Source: an uncultured cyanobacterium
GTDB lineage: Bacteria > Cyanobacteriota > Cyanobacteriia > Cyanobacteriales > Nostocaceae
NCBI GenBank assembly: GCA_963766435.1
Contig: CAVXZH010000005.1
Coordinates: forward strand, 265,610-329,609
Length of the DNA: 64,000 nt
Direction: 5' to 3'
Each line of letters starts with the position of its first letter. Position 1 is the first letter of the stretch. The position numbers and the translations under genes were made by a program. Below, piece after piece: positions 5,548 to 58,455 of this stretch. Under the pieces are notes generated by a model that was not told the origin of the DNA, did not search any database, and saw only the letters and a program-made list of their open reading frames with translations.

Positions 5548-6015
5548 CGTGAAGGTAAAGCACAAGAAATCTACATCGTTACCTCTGGTGAAATGATGGC
5601 GATGTACGCTGCTAACAACATTGCTCGTGGTATTTTGAAATATGCTCACACTGGTGGTGTGCGTTTAGGTGGTTTGATCTGTAACAGCCGTAAGGTTGAC
5701 CGGGAAATCGAATTGATTGAAACTTTGGCTGAACGCTTGAACACCCAAATGATTCACTTCGTACCCCGCGACAACATCGTTCAACACGCTGAATTGCGCC
5801 GGATGACCGTTAACGAATACGCTCCTGACAGTAATCAAGGATTGGAGTACCGCGCATTAGCTAAGAAAATCATCAACAACGACAAGCTCACCATCCCCAC
5901 TCCAATTGAGATGGACGAACTAGAAGCATTGTTGATTGAATTCGGTATTCTTGAAAGCGATGAAGAAGCAGAAAAGCTGATTGCTGCTGACGCTGCTAAA
6001 GCTGCTGCTAAGTAA
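5548..6015 (+). CDS. nifH: nifH 3' segment (nitrogenase Fe protein, from ~codon 125 to the stop)
   Basis: [33 protein letters not shown]...[24 protein letters not shown] matches NifH; upstream of cgtgaagg the sequence is non-NifH (element); 468 nt in frame to TAA. Confidence 0.85.
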
Positions 6016-6163
6016 TAAAACTATGAAGGATGAAGTCTGAAAAATTAATATTTTTCACTTCATACTTCCTTCCCTCTATCCCCCAGGGGAACTAGAGTCC
6101 CCAACGCTACAGGGGACATCCCCTTTCCCTATCCCTATTCCGTATGAGCAAGAGAGGCCGGAA

Positions 6164-7100
6164 ATGACTCCTCCAGACAACAAAAACATCATCGAAGAAA
6201 GAAAAGAACTAGTTAAAGAAGTTCTTAAAGCTTATCCTGAAAAAGCTGCTAAAAAGCGGGAAAAGCACCTCAATGTATATGAAGAAGGTAAGGCTGATTG
6301 CGGTGTTAAATCTAACATCAAGTCTCTTCCTGGTGTAATGACCGCTCGTGGTTGTGCTTACGCTGGTTCTAAAGGTGTGGTTTGGGGTCCTATTAAGGAC
6401 ATGATCCACATCAGCCACGGTCCCGTAGGTTGCGGTTACTGGTCTTGGTCAGGTCGTCGTAACTACTACATTGGTACTACTGGTATTGATACCTTTGGTA
6501 CTATGCACTTCACCTCTGACTTCCAAGAACGTGACATCGTTTTTGGTGGTGACAAAAAGCTGTTGAAATTAATTGAAGAATTAGAAATTCTTTTCCCTCT
6601 CAACCGTGGTATTTCCATTCAATCTGAATGTCCCATTGGTCTAATTGGGGATGACATCGAAGCAGTAGCTAGAAAAGCGGCTAAAGAAATTGGTAAGCCA
6701 GTTGTTCCTGTCCGTTGCGAAGGTTTCCGTGGTGTTTCCCAATCTTTAGGACACCACATCGCTAACGACATGGTACGCGACTGGGTATTCACCAGAGCAG
6801 ACCAAGCTAAGAAAGACGGTACAGCTTCCAAGTTTGAAGGTACTCCTTATGACGTAGCCATCATTGGTGACTACAACATCGGTGGAGATGCTTGGGCTAG
6901 CCGTATTCTCTTAGAAGAAATCGGCTTGCGCGTAGTCGCTCAATGGTCTGGAGATGGCACCATCAATGAGATGTTGCAAACTCCTAATGTGAAAATGAAC
7001 CTCATCCACTGTTACCGCTCGATGAACTACATCAGCCGTCACATGGAAGAGGCTTATGGTATACCCTGTCTTGAATATGATTTAATAGGCGATGTTACCA
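6164..7100 (+). CDS. nifD: nifD segment 1 (MoFe protein alpha, residues 1-~312)
   Basis: MTPPDNKN...CGVKSNIKS...[21 protein letters not shown]... canonical NifD; diverges after ...[17 protein letters not shown]. Confidence 0.9.
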
Positions 7101-7176
7101 GGATTTAGTCCACGCCTGACTTTGTTCAGTTTGAGCCTTGTTCTAAATGGACTAAATTTTAAGCCAGATTTAAGCC

Positions 7177-8586
7177 ATGATAGAAAGCCAGTATCAGGAC
7201 GTTTTTGATGACTTTATGCCACCAGCATCTACGGATGGCAGTTATTTAGGAACTCAAGCACAAATGAACGCTACACGTCAGCACCTGGAAAAGAAATTTG
7301 ATCAGGAGTTAATAGAAGTTAAAGCCAGGCTGAAAGCAGCCAAAATTAAAGTCGGTTTAATCTTGGCAGGTGGAGCTATTCAGCTACAAGCTTCGCTACC
7401 AATCAAGCCGGGTGATGTTGATACAAAAGGGACTGGGTTTAAGCAATACAAAATCTCTCTCAACATTCCTGCTAATTTAGATGGACTAAAAACGGCTGAA
7501 GAGGAAGCACACGAACTAGGAAAGCTAATAGCCCGTAAACAATTTGAATGGAATGATAAATATTCAGGTAAAATCACCAAACCAGAAAATAAACCTAAAA
7601 CCGTGGGTGAGATACTAGAAGATTTTGAATCTGAATACTTTAAACATCACAAAGTGACAGAAAAGAGTAAACACACCTTCTCTTATTACAAAGGCTTCCT
7701 GATTAGGTTGATTGGTGTTGATACCTACCTAACGCAAGTATGTATAGATGCAAAAATTGCAGAGATGTCCGAATGGTCTAAATATCATGCTGTAAAAACC
7801 CTAAAAGTCTTAAAAGGGACTCTCAAATTGACTAGCTTTAGTTTAGAGGGAATTAAAAGTACACAGCCAGAGTCAAAGATTCGTGATATTCCAAGTGATG
7901 ACGAAGTAATTAAATGCTTTCAATTATTTCATCAATATTCATTGAGTAGAAGATTGACAATCAAAAAGAACTTATTGGATACCTGGAAAATGTGGGAATG
8001 GGTATATGGAATGCTTGCCACCTATGGATTACGTCCAAGAGAGTTATTTGTAAATCCACAAATTGACTGGTGGTTGAATTCTGAAAATAAAGATAATACC
8101 TGGAAAGTTCACCCAGACACAAAAACAGGATACAGAGAGGCTTTACCTCTATATCCTGGCTGGGTAGAATTATTTAATTTAAAAGATAATCAGGAAGCAT
8201 TAGAGCTATTGAAAGCTCAAACTGATGGTAGAACCGCTTTTGCAGATATCAATACCATTAGAGTAAATTGTTCTTCATGGTTTAGACGTGTAAGTGTTCC
8301 CTTTACCCCCTACGATTTACGCCATGCTTGGGCAATTAGAGCGCATTTAATGGGAATTCCTATTAAAGCGGCGGCTGATAATTTAGGACACTCTGTTGAG
8401 ATTCATACTGAGGTTTACCAGAAGTGGTTTAGCTTGGAAAACCGAAAAAAAGCGATTAAGCAAGCAGTAGATAAACGAGATGACGTGGATATCTTGAAGC
8501 TGGAAAACTCCCAGCTAGAAGCTGAGGTTGAACGACTTAGGACGGCATTGGCTAGACAGCAGATTGAGTCATTGTTAAATAAATAA
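7177..8586 (+). CDS. XisA-family recombinase of nifD element 1
   Basis: 469 aa; same conserved motifs as 4010 and 53053 proteins; 70 bp inside the left border. Confidence 0.8.
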   Translation: MIESQYQDVFDDFMPPASTDGSYLGTQAQMNATRQHLEKKFDQELIEVKARLKAAKIKVGLILAGGAIQLQASLPIKPGDVDTKGTGFKQYKISLNIPANLDGLKTAEEEAHELGKLIARKQFEWNDKYSGKITKPENKPKTVGEILEDFESEYFKHHKVTEKSKHTFSYYKGFLIRLIGVDTYLTQVCIDAKIAEMSEWSKYHAVKTLKVLKGTLKLTSFSLEGIKSTQPESKIRDIPSDDEVIKCFQLFHQYSLSRRLTIKKNLLDTWKMWEWVYGMLATYGLRPRELFVNPQIDWWLNSENKDNTWKVHPDTKTGYREALPLYPGWVELFNLKDNQEALELLKAQTDGRTAFADINTIRVNCSSWFRRVSVPFTPYDLRHAWAIRAHLMGIPIKAAADNLGHSVEIHTEVYQKWFSLENRKKAIKQAVDKRDDVDILKLENSQLEAEVERLRTALARQQIESLLNK

Positions 8587-8660
8587 ATCCACTACCGCTA
8601 TCGTGATTCCGGTGTCACGATAGCGGTAATTATTTTGTTCTACTATCCCACTAGTTGAGA

Positions 8661-56638: not shown

Positions 56639-56962
56639 ATGGAATCTACTACTCATTCTCACTCCCATACTTATCATCCCGGTTCTCACAGACAATCGGG
56701 TTTATCTGGTATTTTTAATCCTTTACGAAGTTTGGTAGATGCAATACCAGTTAAAGATTCCCGTTTCGCTCATATAATTTGTCAACTAATTCCTTGCTGT
56801 TGTCCTTTTGAGCGAACTATTGCGGTATTTGGTCGGAGTTTCCATATACCAGCATTATGCAAACTTAATCCTTTATATGATGAGTTTGTGGGTTTGCGTT
56901 TTCGGGCTTTATCTTATTTAGCTGATGATTGTGGGGAAGATATCACGAAATATATTTGCTAA
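56639..56962 (+). CDS. small Cys-rich conserved nif-cluster protein (possibly Mo-nitrogenase C-terminal-like domain)
   Basis: 107 aa; CQLIPCCCPFE; position between nifK and nifE as in other cyanobacteria. Confidence 0.4.
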   Translation: MESTTHSHSHTYHPGSHRQSGLSGIFNPLRSLVDAIPVKDSRFAHIICQLIPCCCPFERTIAVFGRSFHIPALCKLNPLYDEFVGLRFRALSYLADDCGEDITKYIC

Positions 56963-56990
56963 AGATTAGTCCAAAAATGAGTTGCAAAAG

Positions 56991-57029
56991 TCAACAGTCA
57001 ACAGTTAACCACTAACTGTTGACTGTTGA
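56991..57029. promoter_or_regulatory. 39-bp near-perfect palindrome TCAACAGTCAACAGTTAACCACTAACTGTTGACTGTTGA upstream of nifE
   Basis: 16-nt arms are exact reverse complements; shares the 13-mer GTCAACAGTCAAC with 60921-60973. Confidence 0.45.
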
Positions 57030-57077
57030 TTAACAATTAATAATTGATAACTAACACCTAAGAAGACGAGAACAGAG

Positions 57078-58455
57078 ATGAAAATCACCCAAGGCAAAAT
57101 TAATGAGTTGCTGACTGAGCCAGGATGTGAGCATAATCAGCATAAACAAACGGAAAAGAAAAATAAATCTTGTGCTCAACAAGCTCAACCAGGAGCTGCT
57201 CAAGGGGGTTGTGCTTTTGATGGAGCAATGATTTCTCTAGTCCCCATTACTGATGCGGCTCATTTGGTTCATGGCCCATCGCTTGTGCTGGTAATTCTTG
57301 GGGTAGTCGTGGTAGTCTCTCCTCTGGTCACAGCTTTACAAGATGGGTTTTACTACTGATTTGGGTGAAAATGATGTGATTTTTGGGGGTGAAAAAAAGC
57401 TTTATCAAGCTATTCTTCAACTTCAGGAACGTTATCAACCCGCAGCTGTATTTGTCTATGCTACTTGTGTTACAGCTTTAATTGGTGATGATATTGATGC
57501 TGTTTGTAAAGCTGCAACTGAAAAAATTGGTGTTCCCGTTATTCCTGTGATTGCTCCTGGCTTTATTGGTAGTAAAAATTTAGGGAACCGTTTTGGTGGT
57601 GAAGCTCTGTTAGAATATGTAGTCGGCACTGCGGAACCAGAATACACTACCGATTATGATATTAACTTAATTGGTGAATACAACATTGCCGGAGAAATGT
57701 GGGGTGTCCTACCTTTGCTAGAAAAATTAGGGATTCGGGTTTTATCTAAAATTACTGGTGATGCTCGCTTCCATGAAATTCGTTATGCTCATCGGGCCAA
57801 GCTGAACGTGATGATTTGCTCACGAGCGCTGTTGAATATGGCTAGGAAGATGGAGGAACGCTATGGGATTCCTTATATTGAGGAGTCTTTTTATGGCATT
57901 GATGATGTCAACCACTGTCTCCGGAATATTGCGGCTCAGTTGGGTAGTCCTGATTTACAAGCACGAGTGGAAGAATTAATTGCTCAAGAAACTGCAACTC
58001 TTGATTTGGCTTTAGCTCCCTATCGCGCTCGTCTTAAAGGTAAGCGGGTTGTACTTTACACTGGTGGTGTGAAGAGTTGGTCGGTGATTTCCGCCGCTAA
58101 GGATTTGGGCATAGAAGTTGTGGCTACTAGTACTAGAAAAAGTACTGAAGAAGATAAAGCCAAAATCAAGAAGTTGATTGGTCAAGATGGAATTATGCTG
58201 GAAAAGGGCAATGCTCAAGAATTGCTACAGCTGATTAAAGACACTAATGCAGATATGCTGATTGCTGGTGGTAGAAACCAATACACTGCCCTGAAAGCCA
58301 GAATTCCTTTTTTAGATATTAACCAAGAGCGTCATCATCCTTATGCAGGTTATGTGGGCATGGTAGAAATGGCGCGAGAATTCTATGAAGCGCTATACAG
58401 TCCGGTGTGGGAACAAGTCCGTAAACCTGCTCCTTGGGATGCCGAGGAAATTTAA
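57078..58455 (+). CDS. nifE: nifE with two apparent 1-nt deletions (~57278, ~57328)
   Basis: [24 protein letters not shown]...[23 protein letters not shown] then, after two shifts, [21 protein letters not shown]... Confidence 0.8.

What the first reader, a model, noticed from the sequence alone, without database searches (positions are those of the whole stretch)
5548..58455. At least 14 single-base lesions in conserved genes, including nifK and nifE
Frame switches that conserved protein sequence spans without other change occur in nifK (~55057, ~56160, ~56313), nifE (~57278, ~57328), the Dam MTase (~9858), Uma2 (~29810, two), GspE (~37160), tnpA (~48630) and the FGE gene (~41880). One TGG to TAG nonsense sits at 42876. 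The tRNA-Thr-like gene has an extra T in its T-loop. Most lesions are 1-nt losses in 2-3-nt homopolymers, the error signature of long-read assemblies. If real, this strain's Mo-nitrogenase (nifK, nifE) would be non-functional while nifD, nifH, nifN and nifX stay intact.
Basis: seen in the sequence. Interest (0 to 1): 0.55.

Follow-up and report, generated by a model that had tools for sequence, protein, structure and literature searches.

The report
Sequencing errors mimicking broken nif genes
The many small "breaks" in the nitrogen-fixation and other genes of this cyanobacterial window are almost certainly base-calling mistakes of a long-read (nanopore-type) assembly at methylated DNA motifs, so this is an assembly-quality warning and not evidence of gene loss.

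Summary
The small lesions are really in the sequence. Comparison with 80 Nostocales relatives shows nifK changing frame three times and nifE twice. Pfam and homologue alignments confirm frameshifts in the Dam-type methylase, Uma2, GspE and IS607 tnpA genes, and a TGG->TAG stop inside the FGE domain. The "extra T" in a tRNA T-loop is not there. nifH and nifD are not intact: nifH is cut by one xis-type excision element and nifD by two, and nifD probably carries a sixth nif lesion (26918).

The lesions are very unlikely to be real mutations. A second assembly of the same strain (Logan contigs of run ERR10755939, 99.7-100% identical over 11.2 kb) reproduces none of the six lesions it reaches. It reads the relatives' in-frame sequence at 56159 and a different garble at 56312. 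Its contigs stop at 29807 and 55060, and none covers the nifE pair. It also has its own frameshift in nifN.

Five of the six nif lesions lie in GATC, GGWCC or GTYRAC, which cover 1.8% of these genes; none needs a homopolymer longer than 2 nt. Repaired NifD/K/E are full length; NifK shows no excess divergence.

Verdict: consensus errors at methylated motifs, a known artefact.

The parts
54925..56459 (+). nifK, in four reading-frame segments in the assembly. After three local repairs it encodes a 511-aa NifK.
   Evidence: tblastn frames. Repair and translation. Only 1 private substitution at otherwise invariant columns; 17 of 80 orthologues have as many or more.
55057..55060 (+). nifK lesion 1: TCAG where all aligned relatives have TGG (Trp). 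This is a substitution plus a 1-nt insertion.
   Evidence: Logan contig L083 begins at 55065, 5 nt beyond it.
56159..56163 (+). nifK lesion 2: AAGAT where the second assembly reads CAACAT, within GGTCAACATG (a GTYRAC site). This is a 1-nt deletion plus a substitution.
   Evidence: L083 reads GGTCAACATGCAACT in frame, identical to the commonest sequence of the relatives.
56310..56315 (+). nifK lesion 3: GGA-CG, with the T of GATC missing between 56312 and 56313.
   Evidence: 76 of 76 relatives have GGATCG here. The second assembly reads a different, also out-of-frame string (ATCAT-CAGACCACC).
57078..58455 (+). nifE, in three reading-frame segments. After two repairs it encodes a 459-aa NifE.
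57275..57280 (+). nifE lesion 1: CCC-ATCGC, with the G of CGATCG missing between 57277 and 57278.
   Evidence: 65 of 75 relatives have CCGATCGC here. The site lies in the 218-nt gap between Logan contigs L083 and L081.
57326..57331 (+). nifE lesion 2: GGTC-ACAG, with one C missing. The inferred truth is GGTCCACAG (a GGWCC site), which restores a Pro that is invariant in the 73 other NifE sequences.
   Evidence: It lies in the same Logan contig gap.
It shifts the frame right after PWLEYNFFG once element 1 is excised at the TACCCTG repeat.
   Evidence: In-silico excision gives a frameshift. Changing CGT to CC gives a 501-aa canonical NifD. The insertion position matches the published 'nifD 895' element variant (PMC4874684).
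9850..9860 (-). Frameshift (about 1-nt loss) in a phage-type Dam N6-adenine methylase, beside or within GCGATC.
   Evidence: The exact missing base is inferred, not shown.
29803..29810 (+). Frameshift in a Uma2-family gene. It is either a 2-nt loss (for example GG[GA]TCT) or a 1-nt gain.
   Evidence: Logan contig L086 (100% identical over 3395 nt) ends exactly here, at 29808.
37159..37177 (+). Frameshift (+1) joining the N-terminal domain ORF 36772-37170 to the T2SSE ATPase ORF 37151-38545 of a GspE/PulE-family gene.
   Evidence: The exact change is unresolved.
41855..41870 (+). 5' discontinuity of the FGE-domain gene. Conserved LPWFRSGYIPDW coding begins upstream of any start codon in its frame.
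   Evidence: Frameshift or old rearrangement; unresolved.
42876..42878 (+). TAG in place of TGG in the GNVWEW motif of the FGE-sulfatase domain.
   Evidence: The source genome's own gene call stops here (P0121, 322 aa).
48628..48632 (+). IS607-family tnpA: GATTCTT where only GATCTT restores ...RFGFD-LISWLC... This is a 1-nt insertion in a GATC.
48607..48609 (+). tnpA codon TGG (Trp) where the one homologue compared has Arg (HKDRL motif). GATTGG against inferred GATCGG suggests a possible C->T error in a GATC.
   Evidence: Inference only.
62045..62048 (+). hesA-like gene: GAAC (Glu) where 66 of 68 relatives have GATC (Asp). Possible substitution error.
   Evidence: Logan contig L082 ends at 62044. 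Inference only.
29808..33202 (.). Stretch covered by Logan contig L086 (ERR10755939), 100% identical.
   Evidence: Its right end lies 3 nt before the CGATCG inside tRNA-Thr.
55065..62044 (.). Stretch covered by Logan contigs L083 (55065-57175), L081 (57393-59913) and L082 (59948-62044), 99.7-99.95% identical.

Best explanation
The lesions are consensus errors of a long-read, nanopore-type assembly. They are not mutations of the organism.

In native DNA, bases modified by the cell's methyltransferases give a signal that the base-caller was not trained on. Here the likely motifs are G6mATC and CGATCG, common in cyanobacteria, and probably GGWCC and GTYRAC restriction-modification motifs. Reads are therefore mis-called in a systematic way at and next to these motifs, with deletions, insertions and purine or pyrimidine swaps. 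The assembly consensus inherits one of the wrong versions.

In coding DNA this appears as isolated frameshifts or odd codons in genes that are otherwise perfectly conserved.

Shown:
- The lesions exist.
- They sit at these motifs.
- A second assembly of the same strain does not reproduce them.

Inferred:
- The sequencing platform.
- That the motifs are methylated in this strain.
- That the lesions inside the two mobile elements have the same cause as those in the nif genes.
For: 1. Logan contigs of run ERR10755939 come from the same strain. They cover 11,208 nt at 99.7-100% identity, including 3.4 kb of mobile-element DNA at 100%.

2. Of the six window lesions these contigs reach, none is reproduced:
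- At 56159 the contig reads GGTCAACATG, in frame and identical to the relatives.
- At 56312 it reads a different garble of the conserved GGATCG.
- Contig ends fall at 29808 (Uma2 lesion) and 55065 (nifK lesion 1).
- The two nifE lesions lie in the only 218-nt gap between two contigs.

3. The Logan assembly has its own frameshift in nifN (window 58719) where the window is intact. Its contig ends fall at GATC or would-be GATC sites (4 of 10) and beside 5-7-nt homopolymer runs (2 of 10). That is the behaviour of error-prone reads. Logan is a k=31 de Bruijn assembly of every public SRA run with reads longer than 31 bp, with no filter on platform in the query the paper gives (PMC12424806).

4. Motif association:
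- 76 of 76 relatives have GATC at 56312 and 65 of 75 have it at 57277.
- The chance that at least 2 of 5 random lesions hit a conserved GATC is 3e-4.
- Five of six nif lesions lie in GATC, GGWCC or GTYRAC, which cover 1.8% of the repaired nifD+K+E. The nominal P is 1e-8, but two of the motifs were chosen after the fact.

5. There is no sign of decay otherwise. Minimal repairs give 501-, 511- and 459-aa NifD, NifK and NifE, 90-94% identical to orthologues. NifK has 1 private substitution at invariant columns.

6. Several lesions are substitution-plus-indel changes within 3-5 nt (55057, 56159, 26918). That is unusual for single mutations and usual for mis-called k-mers.

7. Published precedent:
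- Nanopore consensus errors concentrate in methylation motifs and depend on the taxon (PMC6591954; PMC11610573; PMC10687267).
- Orphan GATC and CGATCG methyltransferases are widespread in cyanobacteria (PMC4390886 and PMC6105098).
Against: - No reads could be inspected. The platform of ERR10755939 and of the source assembly (a 1,609,444-nt contig held by ncbi and ena) is inferred, not known.
- The second assembly is itself error-prone. It offers a clean in-frame alternative at only one lesion (56159).
- A count of broken HIP1 variants did not separate the window from 1.5 Mb of control loci.
- About 106 GATC sites in the window are intact, so the per-site error rate is only a few percent.
- The lesions at 55057, 37160-77, 41860 and 42877 are not at a recognised motif.
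- No second-assembly data were found for the lesions at 9857, 37160-77, 41860, 42877 and 48630. All lie in mobile elements, where real pseudogenes are common.
- NifE has 4-5 private substitutions, more than any of the 73 orthologues. This may simply reflect an outlying lineage.
Confidence: 0.9

Rival explanations
1. The lesions are real. The strain, for example a long-cultured or symbiotic line, has lost Mo-nitrogenase through frameshift mutations in nifD, nifK and nifE, and has many other young pseudogenes.
For: The lesions are in the deposited sequence, and the source genome's own gene call for the FGE gene stops at the TAG (P0121). Pseudogenes are common in mobile elements. One real disruption is present: an IS630 insertion in an AAA ATPase gene.
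Against: - A second assembly of the same strain reproduces none of the six lesions it reaches and is in frame at 56159.
- Six independent frameshifts in 4.4 kb would need a long period of neutral evolution. Yet the repaired genes have no stop codons, and NifK has no excess of substitutions at invariant sites.
- The lesions cluster in methyltransferase target motifs.
- Two assemblies carry two different frameshifts at the same conserved GATC.
Confidence: 0.04
2. Mixed case. The nif lesions are artefacts, but one or more lesions inside the two excision elements are genuine pseudogenising mutations. Candidates are the FGE TAG at 42877, the FGE 5' discontinuity, the GspE frameshift, and the methylase, Uma2 and tnpA frameshifts.
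For: - These genes are cargo of mobile elements under weak selection.
- The FGE 5' end lacks the N-terminal region found in homologues.
- The GspE junction lies in a GC-rich insert absent from the homologue.
- The homologous tnpA in Trichormus variabilis plasmid A itself has an in-frame stop.
- None of these sites was covered by an identical or differing Logan contig, except that one contig ends at the Uma2 site.
Against: - The tnpA insertion falls inside an inferred GATC, the methylase lesion sits beside or within one, and the Uma2 lesion may do so too.
- The Logan contig stops exactly at the Uma2 lesion.
- The lesion density in the elements (about 1 per 7 kb) is lower than in the nifD-nifK-nifE genes (about 1 per 0.7 kb), so no separate cause is needed.
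Confidence: 0.3
3. Programmed recoding. The frameshifts are read through by ribosomal frameshifting or corrected at the RNA level, so the genes are functional as written.
For: None for the listed sites. One unrelated canonical A_AAA_AAG heptamer exists at 23564-23570 in element 1.
Against: - No slippery heptamers occur at the nif sites.
- Both +1 and -1 shifts occur within one gene.
- None of the 73-80 orthologues has a frameshift at these positions.
- The second assembly differs at these sites.
Confidence: 0.005

Closest known systems
Methylation-motif consensus errors in Oxford Nanopore bacterial assemblies (Wick et al. 2019, PMC6591954; Lohde et al. 2024, PMC11610573; Chiou et al. 2023, PMC10687267)
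   Same: Errors recur at short methyltransferase target motifs and depend on modifications the base-caller was not trained on. They survive into the consensus and create false differences or broken genes, while the rest of the sequence is accurate. Here 5 of 6 nif lesions sit in GATC, GGWCC or GTYRAC.
   Different: - The published cases are mostly Dcm (CCWGG) and other enterobacterial motifs, and for R10 chemistry mostly substitutions.
- Here the motifs are those expected in cyanobacteria, and many errors are indels or indel-plus-substitution.
- Methylation of these motifs in this strain, and the sequencing platform, are inferred and not shown.
Indel-induced false pseudogenes in long-read-only assemblies (general problem; Watson and Warr 2019, recalled from my own knowledge, not checked here)
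   Same: Isolated 1-nt indels truncate conserved genes at about one per few kb. Annotation pipelines then call them pseudogenes or split ORFs.
   Different: The classic form is length errors in long homopolymers. Here the 120 homopolymers of 6 nt or more are not where the confirmed lesions fall.
Developmentally excised interruption elements of heterocyst nif genes (nifD/xisA and nifH elements; Hilton et al. 2016, PMC4874684)
   Same: These elements account for the large discontinuities of nifH and nifD in this window. The evidence is three xisA-like recombinase genes (4010-5437, 7177-8586, 53053-54387), the classical GGATTACTCCG repeat at 27346 and 54553, and a second nifD element at the published 'position 895' site.
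   Different: They do not explain the single-base lesions, which are a separate, technical phenomenon.
Genuine nif pseudogenes in non-diazotrophic or reduced cyanobacteria
   Same: Frameshifts and stops in nif genes.
   Different: Real decay comes with substitutions, deletions and loss of neighbouring nif genes, and is reproducible between data sets. Neither holds here.

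Membership tests
Nanopore-type consensus errors at methylated motifs | Lesions are not reproducible: independent data from the same strain disagree at the lesion sites. | tested here: met
   None of the 6 lesions reached by the Logan ERR10755939 contigs is reproduced. One is in frame, one is garbled differently, and four fall at contig ends or in a contig gap.
Nanopore-type consensus errors at methylated motifs | Lesions concentrate in short, usually palindromic methyltransferase target motifs. | tested here: met
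   Two of 5 nifK/nifE lesions lie inside a GATC conserved in 87-100% of relatives (P = 3e-4). Five of 6 nif lesions lie in GATC, GGWCC or GTYRAC, which cover 1.8% of the sequence. The last two motifs were chosen after the fact.
Nanopore-type consensus errors at methylated motifs | The motifs are actually methylated in this organism, and the reads are native-DNA nanopore reads with strand-specific mis-calls. | not testable with these tools
   No raw reads or run metadata are available. GATC and CGATCG orphan methyltransferases are common in cyanobacteria (PMC4390886, PMC6105098). GGWCC (AvaII-type) methylation in Nostocales is from my own knowledge.
Nanopore-type consensus errors at methylated motifs | The affected genes are otherwise under purifying selection and become full length after minimal repair. 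| tested here: met
   Repaired NifD is 501 aa, NifK 511 aa and NifE 459 aa. NifK has 1 private change at invariant columns.
   Where the true sequence is known, the changes are these:
- T lost from GATC.
- G lost from CGATCG.
- TGG->TCAG.
- CAACAT->AAGAT.
- C->GT.

Only 57329 (CC->C) fits. The A7 run at 57394-57400 in nifE is in frame.
Genuine pseudogenes / loss of Mo-nitrogenase | Lesions are reproducible in independent sequence data of the strain. | tested here: not met
Genuine pseudogenes / loss of Mo-nitrogenase | Relaxed selection: excess non-synonymous change, stops and larger deletions alongside the frameshifts. | tested here: not met
   NifE's 4-5 private substitutions are a weak counter-signal.
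Genuine pseudogenes / loss of Mo-nitrogenase | Phenotype: no diazotrophic growth or acetylene reduction. | not testable with these tools
   This needs the culture.
Programmed ribosomal frameshifting | A slippery motif at the shift site, and the shift conserved in orthologues. | tested here: not met
   No slippery motif at the sites. All 73-80 orthologues are in frame there.
Heterocyst-specific interruption elements (for the large nifH/nifD discontinuities only) | An element inside a nif gene, bounded by direct repeats and carrying a xisA/xisC-type recombinase at one end. | tested here: met
   - GGATTACTCCG lies at 27346 and 54553, with xisA at 53053-54387.
- TACCCTG lies at 7062 and 26888, with a xis-like gene at 7177-8586.
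- A xis-like gene at 4010-5437 abuts the nifH 3' half at 5548.

Excision itself was not observed.

The most novel reading that the evidence does not exclude
The lesions are real, and mutation in this strain is targeted to its own methylated motifs (GATC/CGATCG, GGWCC, GTYRAC). This would have inactivated nifD, nifK and nifE in a lineage that no longer fixes nitrogen. The disagreement of the second assembly would then reflect a mixed culture population, not read errors.
Probability: 0.03. Interest if true: 0.5.

Novelty: not a real feature. Interest (0 to 1): 0.08.

Why it matters
Taken at face value, the assembly would lead an annotator to call nifD, nifK and nifE pseudogenes and to score a heterocystous cyanobacterium as non-diazotrophic. 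At about one lesion per 4-5 kb, hundreds of further genes in the genome would be called broken. That distorts pseudogene counts, pangenomes and completeness scores.

The practical value is a warning: this genome needs methylation-aware re-basecalling or short-read polishing before any gene-loss inference is made.

A minor by-product is that the error positions point to the strain's likely methylome (GATC/CGATCG, GGWCC, possibly GTYRAC). Nothing here is new biology.

Tried and rejected
- **Close relative at the DNA level.** The best of 80 genome-contig loci are only about 82% identical in DNA (94% NifK protein), so the comparison had to be made codon by codon.
- **Finding the source or a polished copy by exact protein look-up.**
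  - Seven look-ups found nothing:
    - NifN
    - the truncated NifE N-terminus
    - ORF 9129-9575
    - Fur
    - CorA
    - XisA
    - the source's own FGE fragment
.
  - Four look-ups of window ORFs (NifX, Mo-nitro_C, 30283-30912, 35754-36332), plus one of the Logan NifN fragment P0120 found by homology search, returned Logan contigs.
  - The contig longer than 1 Mb is reported but not shown.
- **Broken-HIP1 test.** I counted one-deletion variants of GCGATCGC in the window against 1.5 Mb of control loci. The ratios were 0.33 and 0.28, so the test is inconclusive.
- **Loss of conserved GATC by substitution.** The window keeps GATC at only 7 of 14 sites where at least 80% of relatives have it. 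I do not count this as evidence. The genome is GATC-poor overall (1.66 against 2.89 per kb), most changes are synonymous ATC->ATT, and the Logan contig agrees with the window at those within L081.
- **Pfam on unrepaired second fragments.** The methylase, tnpA and GspE-N fragments gave no hits on their own. Repaired proteins or homologues were needed.
- **Literature search for ERR10755939.** Nothing found.
- **GTTACCA as the crossover of nifD element 1.** It would give an in-frame but non-canonical NifD ([13 protein letters not shown]). I rejected it in favour of TACCCTG, which matches the published position-895 variant and the universally conserved EYNFFGPTK motif.

Full report
**What the window is**

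The window is the nif region of a heterocystous cyanobacterium, with about 40% G+C. From 54.9 kb onward the ORFs run nifK, a Mo-nitro_C ORF, nifE, nifN, nifX, DUF269, nifW, hesA, hesB and fdxH. The closest NifK proteins in one genome per species are 94% identical, but the DNA is only about 82% identical. The closest full-length NifN is 90% identical (Calothrix sp. PCC 7507). No close relative was therefore available for direct DNA comparison.

**Are the lesions there?**

They are.
- **nifK and nifE.** tblastn with orthologues from the fetched loci shows NifK in frames 1, 2, 1 and 3, with junctions at 55057-60, about 56160 and 56313. NifE runs in frames 3, 2 and 1, with junctions at 57278 and 57329. 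nifN to fdxH are single-frame.
- **Dam-type methylase (about 9857).** It regains a single Pfam stretch when one base is restored: profile positions 24-131 at 54.9 bits, against 36 bits for the fragment.
- **Uma2 gene (29806/7).** The repaired protein matches its profile at positions 10-171 in one stretch.
- **GspE.** A Pseudanabaena plasmid GspE aligns in frame 1 up to 37161 and in frame 2 from 37169.
- **IS607 tnpA.** It switches frame at 48630. A Trichormus homologue gives RFGF-K-LIQWLC where the window needs RFGF-D-LISWLC.
- **FGE stop.** TAG at 42876-78 replaces position 186 of the FGE-sulfatase profile, in the GNVWEW motif.
- **FGE 5' end.** This remains unresolved. Homology to five homologues starts at 41862, upstream of any start codon. 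The N-terminal region of the homologues is absent from the window, so a frameshift and an old rearrangement are both possible.

- Both tRNAs have ordinary 7-nt T-loops. tRNA-Thr instead shows A1.C72 and C28.A40 mispairs.
- nifH is present only from codon about 145 onward (5548-6015). It abuts a xisA-like recombinase gene on the other strand (4010-5437).
- nifD is in three pieces, separated by two elements.
  - Element 1 lies between TACCCTG repeats at 7062 and 26888. Its xis-like gene (7177-8586) sits at the start of the element, in the same orientation as nifD. This is the published 'nifD 895' variant.
  - Element 2 lies between the classical GGATTACTCCG repeats at 27346 and 54553, with xisA at 53053-54387.
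- Joining the three nifD pieces in silico gives a frameshift immediately after PWLEYNFFG. The window has GGTCGTTACC where the nearest relatives have GGTCCTACC. Changing CGT to CC gives a canonical 501-aa NifD.

**Real or artefact: the decisive evidence**

A NifN search found a 100%-identical fragment from a Logan assembly of run ERR10755939. Exact look-ups then recovered five Logan contigs of that run:

| Contig | Window coordinates |
|---|---|
| L086 | 29808-33202 |
| L087 | 35415-36498 |
| L083 | 55065-57175 |
| L081 | 57393-59913 |
| L082 | 59948-62044 |

Together they cover 11,208 nt at 99.7-100% identity, including 3.4 kb of element DNA without a single difference. They therefore come from the same strain.

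There are only five discrepant places in all, and two of them are window lesions.
- At 56159 the Logan contig reads GGTCAACATGCAACT. This is in frame and identical to the commonest sequence of the relatives. The window has GGT-AAGATGCAACT.
- At 56312, where 76 of 76 relatives have ATCATGGATCGCC, the window has ATCATGGA-CGCC and Logan has ATCAT-CAGACC. That is two different frameshifts at one conserved GATC.

The other four lesions within reach coincide with contig ends or a contig gap.
- L086 ends at 29808, at the Uma2 lesion.
- L083 starts at 55065, 5 nt after nifK lesion 1.
- Both nifE lesions lie in the 218-nt gap between L083 and L081.

Conversely, Logan has its own frameshift in nifN (GTCTTG--TGGACATT against the window's in-frame GTCTTGGTTCGACATT).

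The remaining contig ends also fit error-prone reads. They lie at CGATCG (33203), at GCGATCGC (35407-14), at a would-be GATC (62045, where 66 of 68 relatives have GATC) and beside 5-7-nt homopolymer runs (57386-57400, 59922-28).

Logan builds a k=31 de Bruijn graph from every public SRA run with reads longer than 31 bp, with no filter on platform in the query the paper gives, and discards k-mers seen once (PMC12424806). Garbled strings and contig breaks at sites of systematic read error are what one expects from noisy long reads. They are not what one expects from accurate short reads. That the run is nanopore data is my inference.

**Error signature**

Where the true sequence can be inferred from relatives, from Logan, or from an invariant residue plus single-base parsimony, the lesions are as follows:

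| Site | Change |
|---|---|
| 56312 | T lost from GATC |
| 57277 | G lost from CGATCG (65 of 75 relatives have CCGATCGC) |
| 57329 | C lost from GGTCC (restores a Pro invariant in the 73 other NifE sequences) |
| 26918 | C->GT in GGTCC |
| 56159 | CAACAT->AAGAT in GTCAAC |
| 55057 | TGG->TCAG |
| 48630 | T gained in GATC |

The statistics are as follows.
- Two of the five nifK/nifE lesions fall inside a GATC that is conserved in at least 80% of relatives. Such sites cover 16 of 2916 nt, giving P = 3e-4.
- Five of the six nif lesions fall in GATC, GGWCC or GTYRAC, which cover 1.8% of the repaired nifD+K+E. The nominal P is 1e-8, but GGWCC and GTYRAC were picked after seeing the data.
- Two of the three Logan-window differences that are not window lesions also sit at GGTCC (59204) and GTTGAC (60926).
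- The window has 120 homopolymers of 6 nt or more.

Published work fits this picture.
- Nanopore consensus errors concentrate in methylation motifs and depend on which modifications the base-caller has seen (PMC6591954; PMC11610573; PMC10687267).
- Orphan GATC and CGATCG methyltransferases are widespread in cyanobacteria (PMC4390886 and PMC6105098).
- AvaII-type GGWCC methylation in Nostocales is from my own knowledge.

**Selection check**

After minimal repair, NifK (511 aa) has one private substitution at columns invariant in 80 orthologues; 17 orthologues have as many or more. NifE (459 aa) has four or five, more than any of the 73 others. That may reflect the outlying position of this lineage among mostly Nostoc sequences. 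The repaired genes contain no stop codon. Six independent frameshifts with so little other change do not fit genuine decay.

**Limits**

- I could not see reads or run metadata.
- The source genome's 1.6-Mb contig is known only from a hit line and was not retrievable.
- No second-assembly data exist for the lesions at 9857, 37160-77, 41860, 42877 and 48630. Some of these, in mobile-element cargo genes, could be real.
- A count of broken HIP1 sites was inconclusive.
- The apparent loss of conserved GATC sites by substitution is confounded by this genome's low GATC content.
- Two missense oddities are only suggestive of further hidden substitution errors. These are tnpA HKD-W-L at 48607 and the hesA-like Glu for Asp at 62047, both one base away from GATC.

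**Verdict**

The biological alternative, a dead Mo-nitrogenase, is very unlikely. This is a known artefact class, so interest is low.

Noticed in passing
window 4010-7108, 26888-27356, 53053-54703: nifH and nifD are interrupted by three excision elements, each with a xisA-like tyrosine recombinase.
- One element lies in nifH. Only its right end and recombinase (4010-5437, minus strand) are in the window.
- A 19.8-kb phage-like element lies in nifD at the published 'position 895' site, bounded by TACCCTG repeats at 7062 and 26888, with its xis gene at 7177-8586.
- A 27.2-kb element lies at the classical site, bounded by GGATTACTCCG at 27346 and 54553, with xisA at 53053-54387.

This kind of arrangement is already known (Hilton et al. 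2016).
   Followed up: partly
window 7062-7108 vs 26888-26930: The left end of nifD element 1 carries a degenerate in-frame copy of the nifD codons it displaces ([14 protein letters not shown] against [13 protein letters not shown]). This is about 45 nt of imperfect homology beyond the 7-nt repeat.
   Followed up: partly
window 39283-41305: An AAA (AAA_5-type) ATPase gene is split by an IS630-family insertion on the opposite strand (transposase ORFs 40204-40638 and 39650-40222). The N-part matches AAA_5 profile positions 1-24 and the C-part matches positions 52-138. Unlike the single-base lesions, this is a structural, probably genuine, disruption.
   Followed up: partly
window 33163-33309 (minus strand): Two directly abutting tRNA genes with encoded CCA, tRNA-Met(CAT) and tRNA-Thr(CGU), lie inside nifD element 2. 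tRNA-Thr has A1.C72 and C28.A40 mispairs and a CGATCG in its anticodon stem. The Logan contig reproduces A40 and stops 3 nt before the CGATCG.
   Followed up: partly
window 23564-23570: A canonical -1 slippery heptamer, A_AAA_AAG, lies in frame in ORF 23217-23615. It sits where the -1 frame opens into the 513-aa ORF 23534-25075 of the phage-like element 1. It could be a programmed frameshift, an ordinary gene overlap, or an A-run length error.
   Followed up: no
window 43201-43257 and 53007-53033: A 27-nt sequence at 43201-43227 recurs at 53007-53033, and about 21 nt of it recurs inverted at 43237-43257. All copies are in intergenic DNA of element 2. It is a small palindromic repeat of unknown nature.
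   Followed up: no
window 44603-45871 and 46135-47373 (minus strand): Two adjacent paralogous genes (422 and 412 aa) in element 2, with hydrophobic N-terminal segments and a long charged, repeat-like region. I did not search for Pfam matches.
   Followed up: no
window 48607-48609 and 62045-62048: Two missense oddities lie one base away from GATC. One is Trp for the conserved Arg of the tnpA HKDRL motif (GATTGG). The other is Glu for Asp in the hesA-like gene (GAAC, where 66 of 68 relatives have GATC). They hint that substitution errors at methylated sites also exist and would be invisible to frameshift screens.
   Followed up: partly
L081 (Logan ERR10755939) = window 58713-58722: The second assembly has its own frameshift in nifN (GTCTTG--TGGACATT), at a TTCGAC context where the window is intact. 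This shows that both assemblies of this strain are error-prone at particular short motifs.
   Followed up: yes
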